DNA from: a virus
Lineage: Duplodnaviria > Caudoviricetes
DNA: 58,866 nucleotides
Direction: 5' to 3' (one strand)
IMG/VR virus record: IMGVR_UViG_3300037423_000489
Span: 1 to 58,866 of that record
Shown here in pieces: positions 27,051 to 57,860 of this stretch. The number at the start of each line of letters is the position of its first letter. Within the stretch, counting starts at the first letter, position 1. Both the position numbers and the translations under genes were made by a program. The notes beneath the pieces are model-generated. The model worked only from the letters and a program-made list of their open reading frames with translations. It did no database searches and was not told the origin of the DNA.

Positions 27051-27127
27051 GGGCGGTTAGCTCAGTTGGTTAGAGTGCTGCATTCACATTGCAGAGGTCG
27101 CAGATTCGAATTCTGCACCGCCCACCA
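27051..27127 (+). tRNA. tRNA-Val(CAC)
   Basis: Full cloverleaf: GGGCGGT/ACCGCCC acceptor, CTGCA-TTCACAT-TGCAG anticodon arm, GCAGA-TTCGAAT-TCTGC T arm, encoded CCA. Confidence 0.93.
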
Positions 27128-28069
27128 TCATTTACCAAACGCCTTCTGCAACGCCTTCCTTTGTTGCTCGACTTCAATGTGCGCATAGCGCTCTGTCATC
27201 TTTGGCGTGCTATGTCCTAAAATCTTCCTGATCACTTCCAGTGGCACGCCTGATTTAATTAACAGCGATGCTGTGCTGTGACGGAGATCATGAAAGTTCA
27301 CGTGCTCCATGCCTGCCGATTTTCTGGCGCGCTGGAATCCTGATTTCAAGCCTTCCGCCGTGATTGGAAGCGGCAAGTAATTCAACCAAGGCCGCAGCTG
27401 CTTTGTGATTGGCACTGTGCGCCGCCTCAATGTTTTTGTGTTGCCTGACAAAATGGTGATTTCATCATCGCCAATTTCGGCTTCATTCAATTTCAGGATT
27501 TCGCCGCGCCGCATGCCGGTGTAGACGGCAATCCAGATAGCGGCGCGCACATTCATGCTTGCTCTATCAGCAATTTTCTTTACCTGTTCAATAGACAGAT
27601 ACACTTCACGATGGTTGTTCTCGGGCAGGCGCTTTACACGCTCACCATAATTTATGGAGATGATTTCTCGATCAAATGCAAGCGACAATCCTTTTTTGAT
27701 TGTGCCAAGTGTTCTGTTAATTGTGGCAGGCTTCAATCCCTCTTTGAGTAAACCGTCAATCATTAGCACAGCGCATTTCTTGAACTCGCTGGCACGATAA
27801 CCAACTATCCATTTTTTTGATCTGATGGCATGTAATTCTGCGCTCTCAGGGCTGCGCAAATTCTTTGCATGCTCCATATACAAGTCCATTATCTCAATCA
27901 ATGTTGGATCTGCCGAATATTTACGTGCTTTCAGTGATTGGATTATTTCGGCCTTGATAGTTTCTGCTTCTGTCTTTGTTCCGCCCTTTGGCAAGCGTCG
28001 ATGAACGCGCTGCCGGTCGATGCATACGTTGACATGCCAGTATCCCTCTTTGTCTTTAGTGATAGACAT
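27128..28069 (-). CDS. int: Tyrosine integrase
   Basis: YTGMRRGE, K, FHDLRH, LGH, YAH catalytic residues. Confidence 0.95.
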   Translation of the reverse strand: MSITKDKEGYWHVNVCIDRQRVHRRLPKGGTKTEAETIKAEIIQSLKARKYSADPTLIEIMDLYMEHAKNLRSPESAELHAIRSKKWIVGYRASEFKKCAVLMIDGLLKEGLKPATINRTLGTIKKGLSLAFDREIISINYGERVKRLPENNHREVYLSIEQVKKIADRASMNVRAAIWIAVYTGMRRGEILKLNEAEIGDDEITILSGNTKTLRRRTVPITKQLRPWLNYLPLPITAEGLKSGFQRARKSAGMEHVNFHDLRHSTASLLIKSGVPLEVIRKILGHSTPKMTERYAHIEVEQQRKALQKAFGK

Positions 28070-28790: not shown

Positions 28791-29273
28791 TCATGCTGCC
28801 AATTTCTCTTTCGTGTTCATGAATGTTATCCAGTGCGTGTTTGCCTGCTTGCCTGACTTGTGACCGAATAGCGGCCGCCGATCTGTCAGGGCTAAAATCT
28901 CGCTGGTTTTGATTTGGACTTCTGCCCATTTAAAAATAAGAATCCCATCCTCTTCCAACACGCGAAAACACTCAGAAAATCCAAGCCGCAAGTCTGTTCG
29001 CCAATCTTCGCCAAGTACGCCGTATTTCTTTGCAAGCCAGCTATTTTTACCAGCCTTCATCAAATGTGGCGGGTCAAACACAACCAGCTTAAAACTGCCA
29101 TCGTCAAACGGCATCTTTCTGAAATCAATATTCATGTCTGGCTTGATTTCCAATGCGCGACCGTCACACAGGATATGATCTTCGCTTCGAATGTCACCAA
29201 ACAGAACACCTTGATTCTCAGGATCGAACCAGAACATGCGACTTCCGCAGCATGGATCGAGAATCTTTTTCAT
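28791..29273 (-). CDS. SAM-dependent (probably DNA amino-) methyltransferase
   Basis: ILDPCCGSRMFW SAM motif and VVFDPPH catalytic-type motif; GGAG RBS. Confidence 0.85.
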   Translation of the reverse strand: MKKILDPCCGSRMFWFDPENQGVLFGDIRSEDHILCDGRALEIKPDMNIDFRKMPFDDGSFKLVVFDPPHLMKAGKNSWLAKKYGVLGEDWRTDLRLGFSECFRVLEEDGILIFKWAEVQIKTSEILALTDRRPLFGHKSGKQANTHWITFMNTKEKLAA

Positions 29274-29328
29274 TAAGGCTTCTCCCGTCCTTGTATCTGA
29301 GATTCTGCGATTGCGGCTGCTGCGCGTA

Positions 29329-30168
29329 CTATTGCGCGGCGGGTTCTGGCATCCAGTGTGTCGGCTGATTAGCTCTACACCAGCCAACTCCCATAATGTG
29401 TTCTTGATCGCAGGACCAATAGGGCTTCGGCTTACTGTTATATTTTTGTTCGCACCAATATCCAAATATCGGCTTGTAACCGCCCATTAAAAGTATGATT
29501 CTGCTTCCATCCTTCGGCGCTGATTCAATAGGCAGCCACTGCGGCACCTGCGAAGGCAGCCGAGTAGCTGCTTGCCAAGCCATCAAAGCGCACTCTTTAT
29601 CTTTCGCATATCCTTTATCGCAGATTGCAGCCCAAGCGGTTTCAAAATCAATCGGTGCTTTGCTGTCTGTATGGGTGGATGCACTTTGAAACACGGAAGG
29701 CGCATGCATGCGCATCCAATAGCCGCCATACTTGTCACAGAATATGGCTTCGGTAATTCCGAGCTGCCCGATTGACACAAAGCAGGTGCGAGTCGTACCA
29801 GAATACAAAACTGATGTCGGAACTGGCTGATGATCTGGATCACCATTCCAATGCCAATACCAGCCTTGTTCTGTCGGTGGAGTTTTGTCCCATTTAGGCT
29901 CTTGCTCACTCCCCGCTTTATCGTCACGCCACTGGTCGATAGGCACATGTTTGGTTGATCCGTCTGGATTCTGGATATACATACCAGTACCGTGATTCAA
30001 AGCATCCTGCACTGCAAGTTCTTTGTCGTCACTGGATGGCGAGAGGGCGGCACGCTGTGAAATTTCAACAAGATAAAGTAACTTGTCTAGCATGTTCCAC
30101 CCATTAGCAGCTCCCACAGCTTGTGCCTCATCAATTAGCTTGATGGCGTCTTTTCGGTTACTTGCCAT
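29329..30168 (-). CDS. Mosaic early protein with DUF551-like C-terminus
   Basis: WLPIESAPKDG...PTHWMP. Confidence 0.7.
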   Translation of the reverse strand: MASNRKDAIKLIDEAQAVGAANGWNMLDKLLYLVEISQRAALSPSSDDKELAVQDALNHGTGMYIQNPDGSTKHVPIDQWRDDKAGSEQEPKWDKTPPTEQGWYWHWNGDPDHQPVPTSVLYSGTTRTCFVSIGQLGITEAIFCDKYGGYWMRMHAPSVFQSASTHTDSKAPIDFETAWAAICDKGYAKDKECALMAWQAATRLPSQVPQWLPIESAPKDGSRIILLMGGYKPIFGYWCEQKYNSKPKPYWSCDQEHIMGVGWCRANQPTHWMPEPAAQ

Positions 30169-30287
30169 TTGTTGGCTCCTTTAATTTCCATACTTTGCAA
30201 TAGCTGAAATGCTGCGTTCTGTATTCATACGCAGAACAAAACGGGCAAGGTCTAGTTGGTGGATAGATTATTGGCTTCTGATTATCG

Positions 30288-31970
30288 TTACTCATCATCC
30301 TGTTCCTTCCCCGTATCGCCTTTAGGCAAATTCAATGCTTGTGTCTGCTCCTTTACTTCATCTGCAAATACAGTTCCAGCTCGGCCAACAGGGTAATATC
30401 CTTGCTTCCCGCATCGCGTACACTTAATCAGAGATTTATCCGGCTCTCGCTTAATCTCTTTCATTGGCGGTCTAAAGTGATGACCTTCGCAGTTCTCATG
30501 CCAGAACGTACTACCTTCTCTGCGGATTTCAATCACAGCATTCCTTTGTTCCTTCCCCGTATTCGATTCTGGTGTTTGCTCCTTTAATTGACGGATGGCG
30601 TTAGCACAATCAATACCATCATCTGTTCTGTCTTCGCCGATTGATCCTTCGTATAACGCTTCGCACACCTTCGCGCATTCTTCAATCACATCAAGTCGAA
30701 GTTGTCGCGCATATTGCGCTTCAGGATCGTCAGCGTATACATTCTGTTTCTTTGCCTCCTTCGATGCGGGTGCGCAGCGGTAGAGGTCTTCGATAAAATC
30801 AGCAGCTTCATTGATGGCTGTATATGCCCATGAATGCAGGTCTGTTAGTTCGCGCAGATTTTCAATATGACGCTTTGCCTCCACCACTTCCTTGCTCTCA
30901 ATAGGAGAGGGTTGGGGTGCTGCGTTCAATGCCTGCAATTGTTCTCCTACAATCTTGAACAATCTGCGCTTGCATTCCTCATAGCCTTTTGTCCAATCAT
31001 CCATGACAACATCATCAGATACTGCATCTTTCAGATAGCCATACAAAGTTGTTTTGCCGTCCGCCATTACAGGCATCGCTCCATGCGTTTGCTCGACAGT
31101 GTTACCAATAGCAAATATACGTTCAACTTTATCGCTATGTGACGCTTGCCAAACTGATGCAATATTCCCGTCATGGCAAAAGTCAATCGCCAAAATCATC
31201 GGCTCAGTGATGGCAATGCGTTTGCCGCCATTTGACATTTTATTGTTTGCACAATCAGGATGCGCACAGTCACGCTGGTAAGCATCGCCAACGACATGCG
31301 GACATTGTTTGCATTCGCCTTGCTGATCAACAGTGGCATAAGGTTGTACCGAATGGCCGACGCCTAGCATGCCACGCTCGGTGCAACCATTGATTATTTT
31401 TTCGCCATTAATAGTAGGCTCGACTGGCTGCGCTTGCTCCGATTGCTGAACCCTACCAGCCAAGCCGTTACCTTCGTTGTGGTCGTAATGCGCTTGCTGA
31501 TCGACAGGGGCGTAATATGCCTTCCCATCTTTCAAGCCGCGAGCGTAGCCTTTTTCTTCTTCACGTCGCAAATCGGTTTGGTGCTTTGAGCGGAGCGCAT
31601 ATAACTCGCGATGCAAGTCAGTATCCTCTTCCTGATAGCGACGCATCAGCGCTTCAGTCTCGCGCAATTCTTTAACGTCAAACTGACATGCAGTTTTTTG
31701 CGCTTGGTTTACACCAAAATGAAGAGCAGCTTGTTCGCTATCAGTAAATACCTCATCACAGTGAAAGCAGCGCCATGATTGCTGCACGACTGGCTGCGCT
31801 TGCTGATCCTTTATGGCCTGTAGGGCGTCACAAATGGTCTTGTATATATCGCTAGCAAGCCAACTTATGCGCGATTTGGAATCTACTGCTAGAACTTGAT
31901 CCAAGTCGTCCTTCATTTCTTCCAACGCCAGCGCCACAGCATCGTTCTGTTGTTTTGGTTGGGCGGTCAT
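30288..31970 (-). CDS. Mosaic early protein (560 aa)
   Basis: Long ORF in tightly packed operon; WRCFHCDE, IEECAKVCE..CANAIR modules. Confidence 0.7.
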   Translation of the reverse strand: MTAQPKQQNDAVALALEEMKDDLDQVLAVDSKSRISWLASDIYKTICDALQAIKDQQAQPVVQQSWRCFHCDEVFTDSEQAALHFGVNQAQKTACQFDVKELRETEALMRRYQEEDTDLHRELYALRSKHQTDLRREEEKGYARGLKDGKAYYAPVDQQAHYDHNEGNGLAGRVQQSEQAQPVEPTINGEKIINGCTERGMLGVGHSVQPYATVDQQGECKQCPHVVGDAYQRDCAHPDCANNKMSNGGKRIAITEPMILAIDFCHDGNIASVWQASHSDKVERIFAIGNTVEQTHGAMPVMADGKTTLYGYLKDAVSDDVVMDDWTKGYEECKRRLFKIVGEQLQALNAAPQPSPIESKEVVEAKRHIENLRELTDLHSWAYTAINEAADFIEDLYRCAPASKEAKKQNVYADDPEAQYARQLRLDVIEECAKVCEALYEGSIGEDRTDDGIDCANAIRQLKEQTPESNTGKEQRNAVIEIRREGSTFWHENCEGHHFRPPMKEIKREPDKSLIKCTRCGKQGYYPVGRAGTVFADEVKEQTQALNLPKGDTGKEQDDE

Positions 31971-32666: not shown

Positions 32667-32790
32667 TGGTGCTGCCGACTGGAGTCGAACCAGTACATTT
32701 AGTGCACTAAATATGAGATGTTTAACGGTGCTACCGTTACCCATTGCTCACCTCTCATTATGGAGCGCTCTACCATTAAGCTACAGCAGC
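32667..32790 (-). ncRNA. tRNA-like RNA (124 nt) with expanded anticodon region
   Basis: Acceptor GCTGCTG/CGGCAGC+ACCA, D arm TAGCTTAATGGTAGAGC, T arm ACTGG-TTCGACT-CCAGT; ~65-nt hairpin-rich insert in between. Confidence 0.8.
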
Positions 32791-32797
32791 GAAACTC

Positions 32798-33049
32798 TTA
32801 CTCGACTTGCGCCGCAGCCATCGAAGCTGCGAGAACGCGAAGCCAACAGGTCAACGATATTCCGTGGAATTTCTTATCGATAGCACCACGTTGCGCTGCT
32901 TCCTCTTCGCCACGTGCCCATCGTTGTAATGCATATTCAATCACCATTTTTGTTTCTGGTTCTATATATCCGCATGCTTCGAGTTCGCGCATACCTGCTG
33001 ATATGTCAAGTTGATCAACATTAAATCCGGGCACAAGTCCTATTCTCAT
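32798..33049 (-). CDS. Hypothetical protein
   Basis: GGAG RBS before MRIGLVPG; operon context. Confidence 0.6.
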   Translation of the reverse strand: MRIGLVPGFNVDQLDISAGMRELEACGYIEPETKMVIEYALQRWARGEEEAAQRGAIDKKFHGISLTCWLRVLAASMAAAQVE

Positions 33050-33071
33050 TTTGTTTCTCCGGTTGGCGGCG

Positions 33072-33596: not shown

Positions 33597-34063
33597 ACTT
33601 CACCTTTATTCTTTTCGATTGCTTGCAATGCGTATAAATCAATAGCGGGACAGCCAGCATCGCGCCATTTCTGTAACTGCTCATCTGTCATTTGGAAAGA
33701 TGGCACGTTGCCCAATGAATGCTCTCGGAGCGTTGCAACCAGCACAGGCAACGGCGGCAATTCAACAGGCTCTTGCGCCATCTTCTCGGCTTCGGCATTA
33801 CTATTTTCTGCATTTGATAATTTATTCAGAAATGCTTTTACATCTTCTTGGCTTGCATTACCTTCCGCTCTTGCTGCATCTGCCATAGCCAACCATCTTC
33901 TATCTTCAAGATACAATTCATCGACTTTATTTTTTGCTTCCTCGATGGCTTGATAAACTTTGGTTCCATACCAAAGATTTTGATCAGATATAACCTCGCT
34001 ATCATGAATAGCAAATATTGTCCTGATGATTTCGATCAGAACTTGTTCGCGTGGGGTGTTCAT
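33593..34063 (-). CDS. Hypothetical protein
   Basis: Overlap-coupled ORF in early operon. Confidence 0.6.
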   Translation of the reverse strand: MNTPREQVLIEIIRTIFAIHDSEVISDQNLWYGTKVYQAIEEAKNKVDELYLEDRRWLAMADAARAEGNASQEDVKAFLNKLSNAENSNAEAEKMAQEPVELPPLPVLVATLREHSLGNVPSFQMTDEQLQKWRDAGCPAIDLYALQAIEKNKGEV

Positions 34064-34617
34064 GATTTCTCTGTCTCCGCTCCGTGTGCCTCAAGCCATG
34101 TGTCAAGACGTTTCCTTGCATAGGGCGCAAGCGGCTTGTCACGCTCATATAAAGACACATGCGTGTAATCTACGCCGGCCTCTCTTGCGACATCGGTTTG
34201 TGTCATTCCGAAGGCTGTCCGCAACGCGAATAGTGTTTTCACGCTTCCAAAATCGGCATGCTCGTTTTTCATGTGCTCACGAAGGTTTGCGAAGCTACGA
34301 TTGCAGCATGGGCACACGCCATTCATTACGCGTTCGCGCATCTTCTTGTGAGCGCGTGTAATGTTATTGCGCTCGGTTTCTGCCTTTTCAGCTCTCAACT
34401 CGGCGGAATGGAGCATCTCTTCTTTCCTGTCGAGTTCTTCTCTAAGTTTTTGCGCCTCAGTCGGCCCGCTATATGCTTGACTATGGCCATTCGGGCAGTA
34501 AAAAGTCTCCCTGTCTTTTATGCGGCGTTCTCTATAGTCATTTGCTAATGCATATTGAACTCCGCAATTGGAGCAATTAATCACATGAAACCAAGTGTTT
34601 TCTGCAAAAGAGGCCAT
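34060..34617 (-). CDS. Zn-finger plus XRE HTH protein
   Basis: CSNC, FYCPNGH, CPCC..H..H, then LRTAFGMTQTDVAREAGV..SLYE. Confidence 0.75.
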   Translation of the reverse strand: MASFAENTWFHVINCSNCGVQYALANDYRERRIKDRETFYCPNGHSQAYSGPTEAQKLREELDRKEEMLHSAELRAEKAETERNNITRAHKKMRERVMNGVCPCCNRSFANLREHMKNEHADFGSVKTLFALRTAFGMTQTDVAREAGVDYTHVSLYERDKPLAPYARKRLDTWLEAHGAETEKS

Positions 34618-34953
34618 CACTTCCCTCCACCCAATAAATAAACAACACAATAAGCACCACGCACTAGACCAGTAATTTCCTCAACCGGACAGCCTCGCTC
34701 CTCATACCACCGCATCACGGCATAAGAGTTCGTTGTCGCCGGACCGGCTTTATTCGGTAGCTTGATTCGCCAGGTGCGGAGTGGGTCGGTCATGCTGGCA
34801 CCTTGTAAATAGTTGATCCCGTATGCCGAAACATAGCGTTATAAGAATTGAGTGATTCTGTGCGGTCATATCCACCGAACTCGTGCTGGCGCAAGCGCTG
34901 CAAGTAGCGGCTGCGTGCATACTTTCCTGCTGAGATATGGTTTGGCCAGATGA

Positions 34954-56402: not shown

Positions 56403-57860
56403 ATGCCGCGCATAACCAAGTCCGCGGTATTCGATTTAGGCAAATTCAAGACTGGATTAGCCAAGTCGATTGGTGTTCAAAACCTGTTCCTGTTCGACCA
56501 GGCATCAGGTCGTATTGTGGATTTCATGAATCCGCAGCTGATTGCCTCACCTTTGGCGTCTGGCATGTCAGCGGTCCCTGATACTGAAGGTGCGGCGATC
56601 AAATGTAATGGATCGTCTGGCGCACAGTCGGTGACTCTGCCGACACCGATGCAAACTGCAACTGGCAATAATTTGGTGGTAATTGGCCGGATCAAGGCAA
56701 ATGCAGCGCAAACTAATAATCCTGGGCAAGCGTTTGGCTTTTCTTCATCGCTTGGATCAAATCCATCATTCGGTATCGGGTTTGATAACTCCAATCCGCC
56801 CAAAGCTGGATTAACATATTTGACAAGCGCAGGTGCCGGAACACTGGCATATTCGCAAAGCGCACTCAATACATGGGTGACAGTAGCTGCCCAAATAACG
56901 AATATCACGACATTCAGTGCATCTGGTGCAAACTATGCATGGATTAACGGTCAGCCGGCAACGACTGGCCAAGGTTCGTTAGGATTTGGATCTGGCGCCA
57001 ATACCATGAATGAATTGGTATTTGGCGGTCAGCACAGAAGTTCCGGATATTTGCGTTGGTTGAATGGTGCAGTTGAGTGGGCTGCAATCATTGCGGTTCC
57101 GCAGACGCCAATGCCGGATGCATGGCACTGGCAGTTATATGCGGATGACTTTCCGTACAACTTATTTAGTAACGAGCCTGATTTTGTAATCAGCGCGGCA
57201 GGCGGGACAACTGTCGCGTGTTCGTTAGGCACTGTAACGCAAACAGGCTTGGCAGCCTCAGTTGCAATTTCAACAGATGTTGCCGGAAATCTTGCAACGG
57301 TCACGGGTGCAGGAAATGCAGCATCTATCAGAATTTCGACGGATATTGCTTGCGCACTAGGTACCGCAAGTATTGCAGGACAATCAGCGGCAGTCTCAGT
57401 CTCAACAAATGTTGATGCATCGCTAGCAACCATATCTGATGCGGGTTTATCCGCAAGCGTTAGCGTATCAACGGATGTAAGTTGTGCAGAAGCGCAAGTA
57501 ACTTGTGCCGGACTGACGGCAACAGTATTAACAGCGACAACTATTGACTGCGCTCTTGCATCGGTTGCTGTGGCTGGATTATCTGCATCAGTTTTGCAGC
57601 CAACAGATGTTTCATGCATTCCGGCCGGATTGACATCAGCTGGATTGTCCGCCGATATAGTCATTCCAACTGCAGTTTCTTGCAATGCGGCACAGATCAC
57701 GATAACTGGCCTTAATGCAACGGTAACGAGTGCTAGTTACATATGCTCAGCATCTGTTTCTGATTCTGCCTTGTTTAGCATGGCGTTAAGCGACACGAGT
57801 TCATTAATGACCATTAACGATAGCACTGTATTCACAATGACATTAACCGAACAATCATGA
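56403..57860 (+). CDS. LamG/ConA-like domain plus eight 22-aa repeats
   Basis: NTWVTVA..WING..FGG..LNGAV lectin-like N-half; repeats T-D-V-x-C-x-L-A-x-V-x-x-A-G-L-x-A-x-V at ~57207-57735. Confidence 0.7.
   Translation: MPRITKSAVFDLGKFKTGLAKSIGVQNLFLFDQASGRIVDFMNPQLIASPLASGMSAVPDTEGAAIKCNGSSGAQSVTLPTPMQTATGNNLVVIGRIKANAAQTNNPGQAFGFSSSLGSNPSFGIGFDNSNPPKAGLTYLTSAGAGTLAYSQSALNTWVTVAAQITNITTFSASGANYAWINGQPATTGQGSLGFGSGANTMNELVFGGQHRSSGYLRWLNGAVEWAAIIAVPQTPMPDAWHWQLYADDFPYNLFSNEPDFVISAAGGTTVACSLGTVTQTGLAASVAISTDVAGNLATVTGAGNAASIRISTDIACALGTASIAGQSAAVSVSTNVDASLATISDAGLSASVSVSTDVSCAEAQVTCAGLTATVLTATTIDCALASVAVAGLSASVLQPTDVSCIPAGLTSAGLSADIVIPTAVSCNAAQITITGLNATVTSASYICSASVSDSALFSMALSDTSSLMTINDSTVFTMTLTEQS

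What the first reader, a model, noticed from the sequence alone, without database searches (positions are those of the whole stretch)
32667..32790. tRNA body with the anticodon arm replaced by a ~65-nt multi-hairpin
Seen: canonical acceptor stem, D arm, T arm (GGTTCGACTCC) and CCA, but between D and T arms lie an ATGAGAgGT/ACaTCTCAT stem enclosing a TAACGGT-AGC-ACCGTTA hairpin, and a perfect ATTTAGTGCACTAAAT palindrome in the variable-arm position. The insert is paired rather than random, which argues against simple decay. It is too short for a group I intron and there is no G3:U70 pair or tag ORF, so it is not tmRNA. Inference: a tRNA mimic with a new functional domain.
Basis: partly seen in the sequence, partly recalled or inferred. 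Interest (0 to 1): 0.8.

Follow-up and report, generated by a model that had tools for sequence, protein, structure and literature searches.

The report
Orphan phage tRNA-shaped RNA without anticodon
A soil phage carries a gene with a complete transfer-RNA outer shape but a folded rod and hairpin where the codon-reading arm should be; it is real, but no relative was found, so its function is unproven.

Summary
On the minus strand (32790..32667) lies a 124-nt gene with a 7-bp acceptor stem, canonical D and T arms, A73 and an encoded CCA (Rfam tRNA 44.2 bits). About 71 nt of self-paired sequence replaces the anticodon arm and variable loop.

It is not a decoding tRNA, an intron-bearing tRNA, a tmRNA or a Y RNA:
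- ARAGORN does not call it.
- No single excision restores an anticodon arm.
- Position 3:70 is U-A.
- The Ro60-binding motif and any TROVE gene are absent.

It sits 7 nt after one ORF and 17 nt before the next, in the accessory early-left operon of a temperate siphophage from soil, with no promoter or terminator of its own.

I found no homologue, with or without the insert. The closest relative phage (portal 92% identical) has packed ORFs at that place. Pattern scans show the general design (tRNA shell plus foreign middle) is common in phages: 84 insert clusters among 168 sequences. This scan noted the same design before on other DNA.

Best reading (0.45): a non-decoding "tRNA-scaffold" RNA cut out by tRNA-processing enzymes. 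Main rival (0.33): a remodelled, dead tRNA gene.

The parts
32667..32790 (-). Whole tRNA-shaped gene, 124 nt, 5' end at 32790, encoded CCA at 32669-32667
   Evidence: Rfam RF00005 44.2 bits, E 3.5e-6, 32670-32790 minus strand; sequence read
32784..32790 (-). Acceptor stem 5' strand GCUGCUG; pairs with 32671-32677 (CGGCAGC); 7 bp, one G.U, 3:70 = U-A
   Evidence: sequence; alignment
32767..32781 (-). D arm GCUU-AAUGGUA-GAGC (4-bp stem, G18G19 present)
32752..32765 (-). Linker CUCCAUAAUGAGAG after G26; only weak pairing predicted; CUCCAU could alternatively pair with AUGGG inside the rod (pseudoknot, inference only)
   Evidence: fold; direct reading
32713..32751 (-). Rod in the anticodon-arm position: GUGAG/CUCAU, 2-nt bulge, AUG/CAU, internal loop, 7-bp hairpin UAACGGU-AGC-ACCGUUA (32723-32739)
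   Evidence: cloverleaf-constrained MFE -40.0 kcal/mol; hairpin located
32697..32712 (-). Perfect 16-nt palindrome AUUUAGUGCACUAAAU, a 6-bp hairpin with a 4-nt loop in the variable-arm position
   Evidence: only perfect copy in the window
32678..32694 (-). T arm ACUGG-UUCGACU-CCAGU
32798..33052 (-). Upstream 84-aa ORF (longest frame reaches 33118); its stop codon ends 7 nt before the RNA's first base; real gene with 4 relatives at 70-74% identity
32242..32649 (-). Downstream 135-aa ORF with a CxxC...CxxC motif; ATG 17 nt after the CCA, AAGGA 8 nt before the ATG

Best explanation
It is a non-decoding, tRNA-shaped small RNA: a natural 'tRNA scaffold'.

Proposed steps (all inferred):
1. The gene has no promoter or terminator of its own and is transcribed as part of the phage's leftward early/accessory operon.
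2. The intact tRNA shell makes the transcript a substrate for the host's tRNA-processing enzymes. The shell consists of a 12-bp acceptor/T stack, the D/T-loop elbow and ACCA at the 3' end. RNase P would cut at the 5' end. An endonuclease followed by exonuclease trimming would cut at the AU-rich stretch after the CCA.
3. Excision releases a stable 124-nt RNA and, in the same act, cuts the operon mRNA between the 84-aa and 135-aa genes.
4. The roughly 39-nt rod and the 16-nt hairpin sit where the anticodon and variable arms would be. They are the working part, most likely a binding site for a protein.

Shown: the shape, the lack of any anticodon arm, the operon position, and the fold compatibility.
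Inferred: transcription, processing, stability and a trans-acting role.
For: 1. The shell is complete while the anticodon arm is wholly absent. No single deletion among all those tried restores a 5-bp stem with a 7-nt loop; the best give 4 of 5 pairs. So this is a replacement, not a simple insertion.
2. The insert is structured and does not disturb the shell.
- The constrained cloverleaf energy (-40.0) equals the global MFE (-40.1).
- 4 of 400 shuffled inserts reach that constrained energy.
- 28 of 400 reach the native ensemble probability of the shell, 0.15 against a shuffle median of 0.005.
3. It is tightly embedded between two co-directional ORFs, with gaps of 7 nt and 17 nt. No promoter- or terminator-like site lies beside it.
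4. The design recurs.
- The pattern 'D arm, 58-88 nt, T loop' gave complete tRNA shapes without a second tRNA arm inside in 86 of 116 viral hits, 60 of 120 genome hits and 21 of 27 metagenome hits.
- These fall into 84 insert clusters, one with 31 members.
- Some are Y-RNA-like and lie next to Ro60 genes, so a protein-binding helix in the anticodon-arm position is an established natural use.
5. Engineered tRNA scaffolds with the anticodon stem-loop replaced are processed and accumulate in E. coli (PMC3753655, passages read).
Against: 1. It is a singleton. No homologue was found in any of these searches:
- the phage collection;
- IMG/VR patterns (0 hits each);
- metagenome patterns (0 hits; 27 hits, none alike);
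- 236 other inserts (best E 2.9);
- 400 genomes of the Gammaproteobacteria class (4 genomes, matching only 28-30 nt of the 3' half).
2. The closest relative phage lacks it. None of the 17 relative records searched holds a tRNA shape with an insert.
3. There is no expression data; no RNA run holds the sequence.
4. The fold statistics are modest. Whole-molecule z is -1.99, with 8 of 200 shuffles as good. 36 of 400 shuffles have as small a gap between the constrained and the global energy.
5. One 16-bp perfect palindrome per 59 kb is about what chance gives (my estimate, 4^-8 per position). Palindromic DNA folds as RNA without any selection on the RNA.
6. Ascertainment: it was noticed because the shell is intact.
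Confidence: 0.45

Rival explanations
1. It is a dead tRNA gene. A phage tRNA, with a body closest to tRNA-Thr, lost its anticodon arm to recombination or to insertion of palindromic DNA in a highly mosaic accessory region. What remains is neutral, and the pairing reflects DNA palindromes rather than RNA function.
For: - It is a singleton with no conserved relatives.
- The region is mosaic: the relative G001 shares only islands of similarity between window 26.8 and 38.7 kb.
- The body resembles ordinary tRNA-Thr(UGU) and tRNA-Leu(GAG) 3' halves at 87-89% over 28-30 nt.
- Fold statistics are only modest.
Against: - The shell shows no decay at any conserved position, while the whole anticodon arm is gone without remnants. 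Simple insertion would leave both half-arms.
- No second copy of the insert or of its hairpins was found in the window, in IMG/VR or in the metagenome scan, so there is no sign of a repeated mobile element.
- The insert leaves the cloverleaf competitive with the global fold.
Confidence: 0.33
2. It acts mainly in cis, as a tRNA-like processing signal ('punctuation') whose job is to have RNase P cut the operon mRNA between the 84-aa and 135-aa genes. That would uncouple their stability or translation. The released RNA would be a by-product.
For: - Gaps of 7 nt and 17 nt to the flanking ORFs, same strand, no promoter or terminator of its own.
- The shell has all the features that RNase P recognises (direct reading plus textbook knowledge).
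- M. smegmatis YrlA, another tRNA-like RNA, is cut by RNase P RNA in vitro (PMC4201824, passages read).
Against: - A plain tRNA or a minimal acceptor/T hairpin would serve the same purpose. This reading does not explain the 71-nt structured middle.
- The closest relative manages the neighbouring genes without it.
Confidence: 0.14
3. It is a decoding tRNA with an unusual intron that is spliced out.
For: - Phage tRNAs with 'enigmatic' introns have been reported in Lak megaphages (PMC6784885, passages read).
- Archaeal tRNAs with introns of this size appeared in my pattern scan.
Against: - No excision of one segment restores a canonical arm; the best candidate has 4 A-U pairs and needs a 41-nt removal directly after position 26.
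- No group I intron or other Rfam family matches at E <= 10.
- The phage's nearest cultured relatives by terminase infect bacteria, and bacteria are not known to have the bulge-helix-bulge splicing enzyme (my knowledge).
Confidence: 0.03
4. It is a Y RNA (YrlA-type) that tethers a Ro60 protein.
For: - It has the same D-arm sequence type as YrlA; a 21-nt exact match to a weak YrlA-like element in Gordonia phages.
- Ro60-adjacent RNAs with the same tRNA topology exist.
Against: - The GNCGAAN0-1G motif is absent.
- The phage has no TROVE gene at E <= 1.
- Rfam YrlA scores 12.8 bits against a threshold of 69, and that hit is not on the insert.
Confidence: 0.03

Closest known systems
YrlA / bacterial Y RNAs (Chen et al. 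2014, PMC4201824; passages read)
   Same: - A tRNA-like shell (acceptor, D and T arms) joined to a non-tRNA helix in the anticodon-arm position.
- Also found in phages.
- One member is cut by RNase P and receives CCA.
   Different: - YrlA is circularly permuted: T arm, closed acceptor hairpin, D arm, with the RNA ends in the Ro60-binding helix.
- YrlA carries GNCGAAN0-1G and lies within 4 kb of a Ro60 gene.
- Here the ends are at the acceptor stem, the motif and Ro60 are absent, and the insert is unrelated.
Engineered tRNA scaffold for recombinant RNA (PMC3753655, passages read)
   Same: The same architecture: acceptor stem, T and D arms kept, and the anticodon stem-loop replaced by a hairpin-closed insert. 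In E. coli this gives processed, stable RNA.
   Different: That one is man-made. This one is natural, sits inside an operon, and also carries a hairpin in the variable-arm position.
Phage T4 RNAC and RNAD, stable small RNAs from the T4 tRNA region
   Same: Phage-encoded small RNAs of still unknown function (PMC9697503, passage read). Their tRNA-likeness and their location come from earlier notes of this scan and from recall; I did not check them here.
   Different: - T4 is a lytic phage with a tRNA cluster; here it is a lone gene in the accessory operon of a temperate phage.
- I made no sequence comparison.
Other tRNA-shaped RNAs with foreign middles in uncultured phages and bacteria
   Same: A complete tRNA outer shape, 58-88 nt between the D stem and the T loop, and often a small hairpin just before the T arm.
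   Different: The insert matches none of them (best E 2.9). It is a singleton among 84 clusters.
tmRNA
   Same: A tRNA-like acceptor/T domain with CCA, and no anticodon.
   Different: - Position 3:70 is U-A, not G.U.
- Only 124 nt, a true D arm, no tag frame.
- Not called by ARAGORN or by the Rfam tmRNA model.

Membership tests
Decoding tRNA (Rfam RF00005) | 7-bp acceptor stem, discriminator base, D and T arms with the conserved tertiary nucleotides | tested here: met
   44.2 bits against a threshold of 29; positions read
Decoding tRNA (Rfam RF00005) | 5-bp anticodon stem with a 7-nt loop (U33, purine 37) | tested here: not met
   65 nt replace 15 model positions; ARAGORN makes no call; no arm is present even after any single excision
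Intron-bearing tRNA (group I or bulge-helix-bulge) | Removing one segment restores a canonical anticodon arm; for group I, an intron core | tested here: not met
   Across all single excisions leaving a 20-40-nt remainder, the best give 4 of 5 stem pairs (3 candidates). No Rfam intron family matches at E <= 10
tmRNA | G3.U70 alanine identity pair, tag reading frame, pseudoknots, detection by tmRNA models | tested here: not met
   3:70 is U-A; ARAGORN tRNA/tmRNA scan and Rfam find none here
YrlA / bacterial Y RNA | GNCGAAN0-1G Ro60-module motif (PMC4201824) | tested here: not met
   Absent from the insert; present in 11 of 168 tRNA-shaped inserts compared
YrlA / bacterial Y RNA | Encoded within 4 kb of a Ro60 (TROVE) gene on the same strand | tested here: not met
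   No TROVE match in the 58.9-kb record at E <= 1, while the control genomes gave hits; the neighbouring ORFs have no such Pfam hit
YrlA / bacterial Y RNA | Match to the family covariance model RF02553 | tested here: not met
   12.8 bits against a threshold of 69, E 7.2, covering only the D arm and upstream sequence
Phage tRNA-shaped RNAs with a replaced anticodon arm (informal class) | Complete tRNA outer shape with a long structured middle and no second tRNA arm inside | tested here: met
   By direct reading, the element meets the criteria applied to the comparison set
Phage tRNA-shaped RNAs with a replaced anticodon arm (informal class) | Sequence relation of the insert to a recurring cluster, or conservation across phages | tested here: not met
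   Singleton among 84 clusters; best E 2.9; absent from the 17 relative records searched
RNase P substrate / stable processed RNA | Cleavage at +1 and accumulation of a discrete RNA | not testable with these tools
   No RNA run holds the sequence; only DNA contigs could be laid on it

The most novel reading that the evidence does not exclude
A temperate phage uses a tRNA chassis as a delivery vehicle. Host tRNA-processing enzymes cut a stable 124-nt RNA out of an operon mRNA. Its rod-and-hairpin module then acts in trans, for example as a decoy or tether for a host or phage protein that handles tRNA ends or shapes, in the way Y RNAs tether Ro60. This would be one of very many independent inventions of the same trick in phages.
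Probability: 0.3. Interest if true: 0.65.

Novelty: new variant of a known kind. Interest (0 to 1): 0.4.

Why it matters
Taken alone, this gene is an unproven singleton. Its value is as one more clean, small example of a design that my scans show to be very common in phage DNA and that standard tRNA finders and Rfam do not separate from tRNAs. That design is a tRNA shell with a foreign structured middle.

If such RNAs are made and stable, they form a large, mostly unstudied class of phage small RNAs that borrow host tRNA processing. This one is short, sits in a simple operon context and would be easy to test in a laboratory host.

Tried and rejected
Homologue searches that found nothing alike:
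- blastn of 1.6 kb and of the 124 nt against 50,697 phage records. One search matched only 21-36-nt pieces of the tRNA body.
- Exact or degenerate patterns in IMG/VR: 0 hits each.
- A metagenome 21-mer from the insert: 0 hits.
- A metagenome D-arm/T-loop pattern: 27 hits, none alike.
- The generic pattern in genome and viral contigs: 120 and 116 hits.
- The 124 nt against 400 scored genomes (401 drawn, one not scored) of the class reached from one gammaproteobacterial handle.
- All pattern scans need exact matches, so relatives diverged at the chosen positions would be missed.

Synteny:
- The 135-aa and 560-aa neighbours have no relatives by the peptide-pattern method.
- The 84-aa neighbour has 4 relatives. 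They show no tRNA-like element and share nothing else with the window.

Expression: no RNA holder is listed. Three soil DNA runs, possibly the source of this record, hold it without any variant.

Other negatives:
- Target search: no complementarity to the rest of the phage beyond chance (best E 0.33).
- Operator idea: the palindrome has no second good copy in the window.
- Defence link: PADLOC names only a DNA methyltransferase at 28791-29465.
- Host: terminase is 79% identical to that of a Burkholderia phage, but window G+C is 49% and the best tRNA-Val identity among 400 genomes is 86%. The host is not assigned.

Limits:
- Supplementary tables of PMC4201824, which list the phage YrlA RNAs, could not be opened and might list similar RNAs.
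- Not in print as far as my searches went: searches returned no paper describing this RNA. They are word searches of open-access text only.

Full report
**What the window is.** The window is a whole IMG/VR virus record of 58,866 bp, estimated 96% complete. Its genes mark it as a temperate siphophage:
- large terminase, portal, head protease and major head protein at the left end;
- a tyrosine integrase at 27128-28069 (-), abutting a complete tRNA-Val(CAC) at 27051-27127;
- an HTH repressor-like protein at 34060-34650 (-);
- an exonuclease, a DNA methyltransferase and a replication initiator.

The terminase is 79% identical to that of Burkholderia phage phiBt-TXDOH. However, window G+C is 49%, and the best tRNA-Val identity among 400 sampled genomes of one proteobacterial class is 86%, so I do not name a host. 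Three soil-metagenome DNA runs hold the locus with no variant. They may be the source of the record.

**The observation.** Read on the minus strand, 32790..32667 is a 124-nt tRNA-shaped gene. Rfam's tRNA model matches all 71 positions at 44.2 bits (E 3.5e-6 for the window) but reports 65 nt where 15 anticodon-arm positions belong. ARAGORN finds only the tRNA-Val and no tmRNA. By direct reading:
- The acceptor stem has 7 pairs, one of them G.U, and 3:70 is U-A.
- U8, A14, A15, G18G19, A21, G53-C61, U54, C56, A58 and U48 are all in place.
- The discriminator is A, and CCA is encoded.

**Shape of the middle.**
- With the three shell helices enforced, the best fold is -40.0 kcal/mol, practically equal to the unconstrained optimum of -40.1.
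- That fold places a continuous rod in the anticodon-arm position: GUGAG/CUCAU, a 2-nt bulge, AUG/CAU, an internal loop, then a 7-bp hairpin with an AGC loop.
- The palindrome forms a 6-bp hairpin in the variable-arm position.

Fold statistics:
- The insert alone has z = -2.4; 21 of 1000 shuffles fold as well.
- The whole molecule has z = -1.99; 8 of 200 shuffles fold as well.
- With shuffled inserts, 4 of 400 reach the native constrained energy.
- 28 of 400 reach the native ensemble probability of the shell, 0.15 against a shuffle median of 0.005.
- 36 of 400 have as small a gap between constrained and global energy.

The insert is therefore better folded and less disruptive than most random inserts, but not overwhelmingly so.

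**What it is not.**
- Not a decoding tRNA or an intron-bearing tRNA. Across all single excisions that leave a 20-40-nt remainder, none gives a 5-bp stem with a 7-nt loop. The three best have 4 of 5 pairs and odd geometry.
- No other Rfam family comes near at E <= 10. The three remaining hits score 12.8-15 bits against thresholds of 44-69.
- Not a tmRNA: U3-A70, a true D arm, 124 nt, and no model hit.
- Not a Y RNA of the YrlA type as defined in PMC4201824 (passages read). The GNCGAAN0-1G motif is absent. The phage has no TROVE gene at E <= 1, while control genomes gave hits. The YrlA model scores 12.8 bits against 69.

**Context.**
- The RNA begins 7 nt after the stop codon of an 84-aa ORF, which has four relatives at 70-74% identity in other viral contigs.
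- It ends 17 nt before the ATG of a 135-aa ORF, which has an AAGGA 8 nt upstream of the ATG.
- No promoter-like or terminator-like site lies next to it, so it must be co-transcribed with its neighbours.
- It lies in the accessory stretch between the repressor-like gene and the integrase. That stretch also holds a type II-like DNA methyltransferase (PADLOC 3.2e-71) and several ORFs without any family.

**Relatives.** I found none.
- The phage collection gives no match to 1.6 kb around the element and only 21-36-nt pieces of the tRNA body for the element itself.
- Exact or degenerate patterns from the element give 0 hits in IMG/VR and 0 in metagenomes for an insert 21-mer.
- The 27 metagenome hits to its D-arm/T-loop pattern have other inserts.
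- Among 400 genomes of one class, 4 match, and only over 28-30 nt of the 3' half (87-89%). Those genes are tRNA-Thr(UGU) and tRNA-Leu(GAG). This hints that the shell descends from an ordinary tRNA, perhaps a Thr type.
- The closest relative phage (portal 92% identical) is syntenic on both sides, with the 92-aa ORF 85% identical. At the corresponding place it has tightly packed ORFs and no tRNA-model hit anywhere in its 45.8 kb.
- In all 17 relative records searched with the tRNA model, only two ordinary tRNAs passed the threshold. Many of these records are fragments.
- The four loci with the 84-aa gene share nothing else and hold no tRNA-like element.

- After removing hits with a second tRNA arm inside, and requiring at least 6 of 7 acceptor pairs, complete tRNA shapes remain in 60 of 120, 86 of 116 and 21 of 27 hits. 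The genome set includes archaeal intron-bearing tRNAs.
- Together with this element, the inserts form 84 clusters among 168 sequences. 64 are singletons and the largest cluster has 31 members. This element is a singleton, with best similarity E 2.9.
- Rfam calls the 18 such loci I tested nothing but tRNA.
- Some carry the Y-RNA Ro60 helix closed by a loop, and two of them lie within about 1-2 kb of a TROVE gene on the same strand.
- So a tRNA shell carrying a protein-binding helix instead of the anticodon arm is a real, recurring natural design. Earlier notes of this scan describe further cases on other DNA.

**Mechanism I commit to (0.45).** The gene makes a non-decoding RNA on a tRNA chassis. 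The shell recruits RNase P and 3' trimming. That both releases a stable 124-nt RNA and cuts the operon mRNA. The rod and hairpin are the effector, probably a protein-binding site. This mirrors the engineered tRNA scaffold, in which the anticodon stem-loop is replaced by an insert and the chimera is processed and accumulates in E. coli (PMC3753655, passages read). Only the anatomy and the context are shown; transcription, processing and trans action are inferred.

**Rivals.**
- A remodelled dead tRNA gene (0.33) fits the singleton status and the mosaic region. It fits less well with an undamaged shell beside a fully replaced arm.
- A purely cis-acting processing signal (0.14) fits the operon position but does not explain the structured middle.
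- A spliced tRNA (0.03) and a Ro60 partner (0.03) fail direct tests.

**Verdict.** Function is undemonstrated. It is a new variant of a known kind, of moderate interest mainly as a compact test case.

Noticed in passing
G009:C1:78830-78975 (= L043:6830-6975, minus strand); G010:C26:162700-162860 (= L033:2700-2860, minus strand); L021, L036, L041, L028: These are tRNA-topology Y-RNA-like genes in Deinococcus marmoris, a Polyangiales MAG and Nostoc-type cyanobacteria. They have an open acceptor stem and D and T arms, and in the anticodon-arm position a helix reading CUUGNC-loop-GNCGAAG, like the Ro60-binding helix but closed by a loop. Rfam calls them only tRNA. In the first two genomes a TROVE ORF lies about 1-2 kb away on the same strand. 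They look like circular permutations of published YrlA. I could not check the paper's supplements to see whether they are already listed.
   Followed up: partly
L126-L241 (IMG/VR), e.g. L126:745-837: 86 of 116 viral pattern hits are complete tRNA shapes with foreign middles. One cluster of 31 near-identical members (insert starting GGTGCAGGGATGCGAAATAG) recurs in many contigs of one large data set. Another recurring type has a hairpin followed by ACAGCAA.
   Followed up: partly
L342:1454-1551 (Gordonia phage Octobien14, NC_060134.1 about 57705-57802): An unannotated YrlA-like element (Rfam 29.5 bits, below the threshold of 69) lies between tRNA-Lys and tRNA-Leu in the phage's tRNA cluster. The same 21-nt D-arm match occurs in phages Sephiroth and Kudefre.
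   Followed up: partly
window 27051-28069: A complete tRNA-Val(CAC) on the + strand ends exactly where the integrase ORF on the - strand ends (27127/27128). This is probably the attachment site. The closest relative phage has a different integrase region and no tRNA.
   Followed up: no
window 28791-31970 (-): A type II-like or orphan DNA methyltransferase (PADLOC 3.2e-71) sits beside 279-aa and 560-aa ORFs that match no Pfam, PHROG, NCBIfam or PADLOC family and have no relatives by the peptide-pattern search. This may be an accessory or defence-type module in the lysogeny region.
   Followed up: no
L055, L079, L092, L124 (gammaproteobacterial contigs): These tRNA genes keep an apparently normal anticodon arm (loop CUUAUAA) but carry an extra arm of about 40 nt, with a GC-rich hairpin, between the anticodon arm and the T arm. 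They form a 4-member cluster.
   Followed up: no
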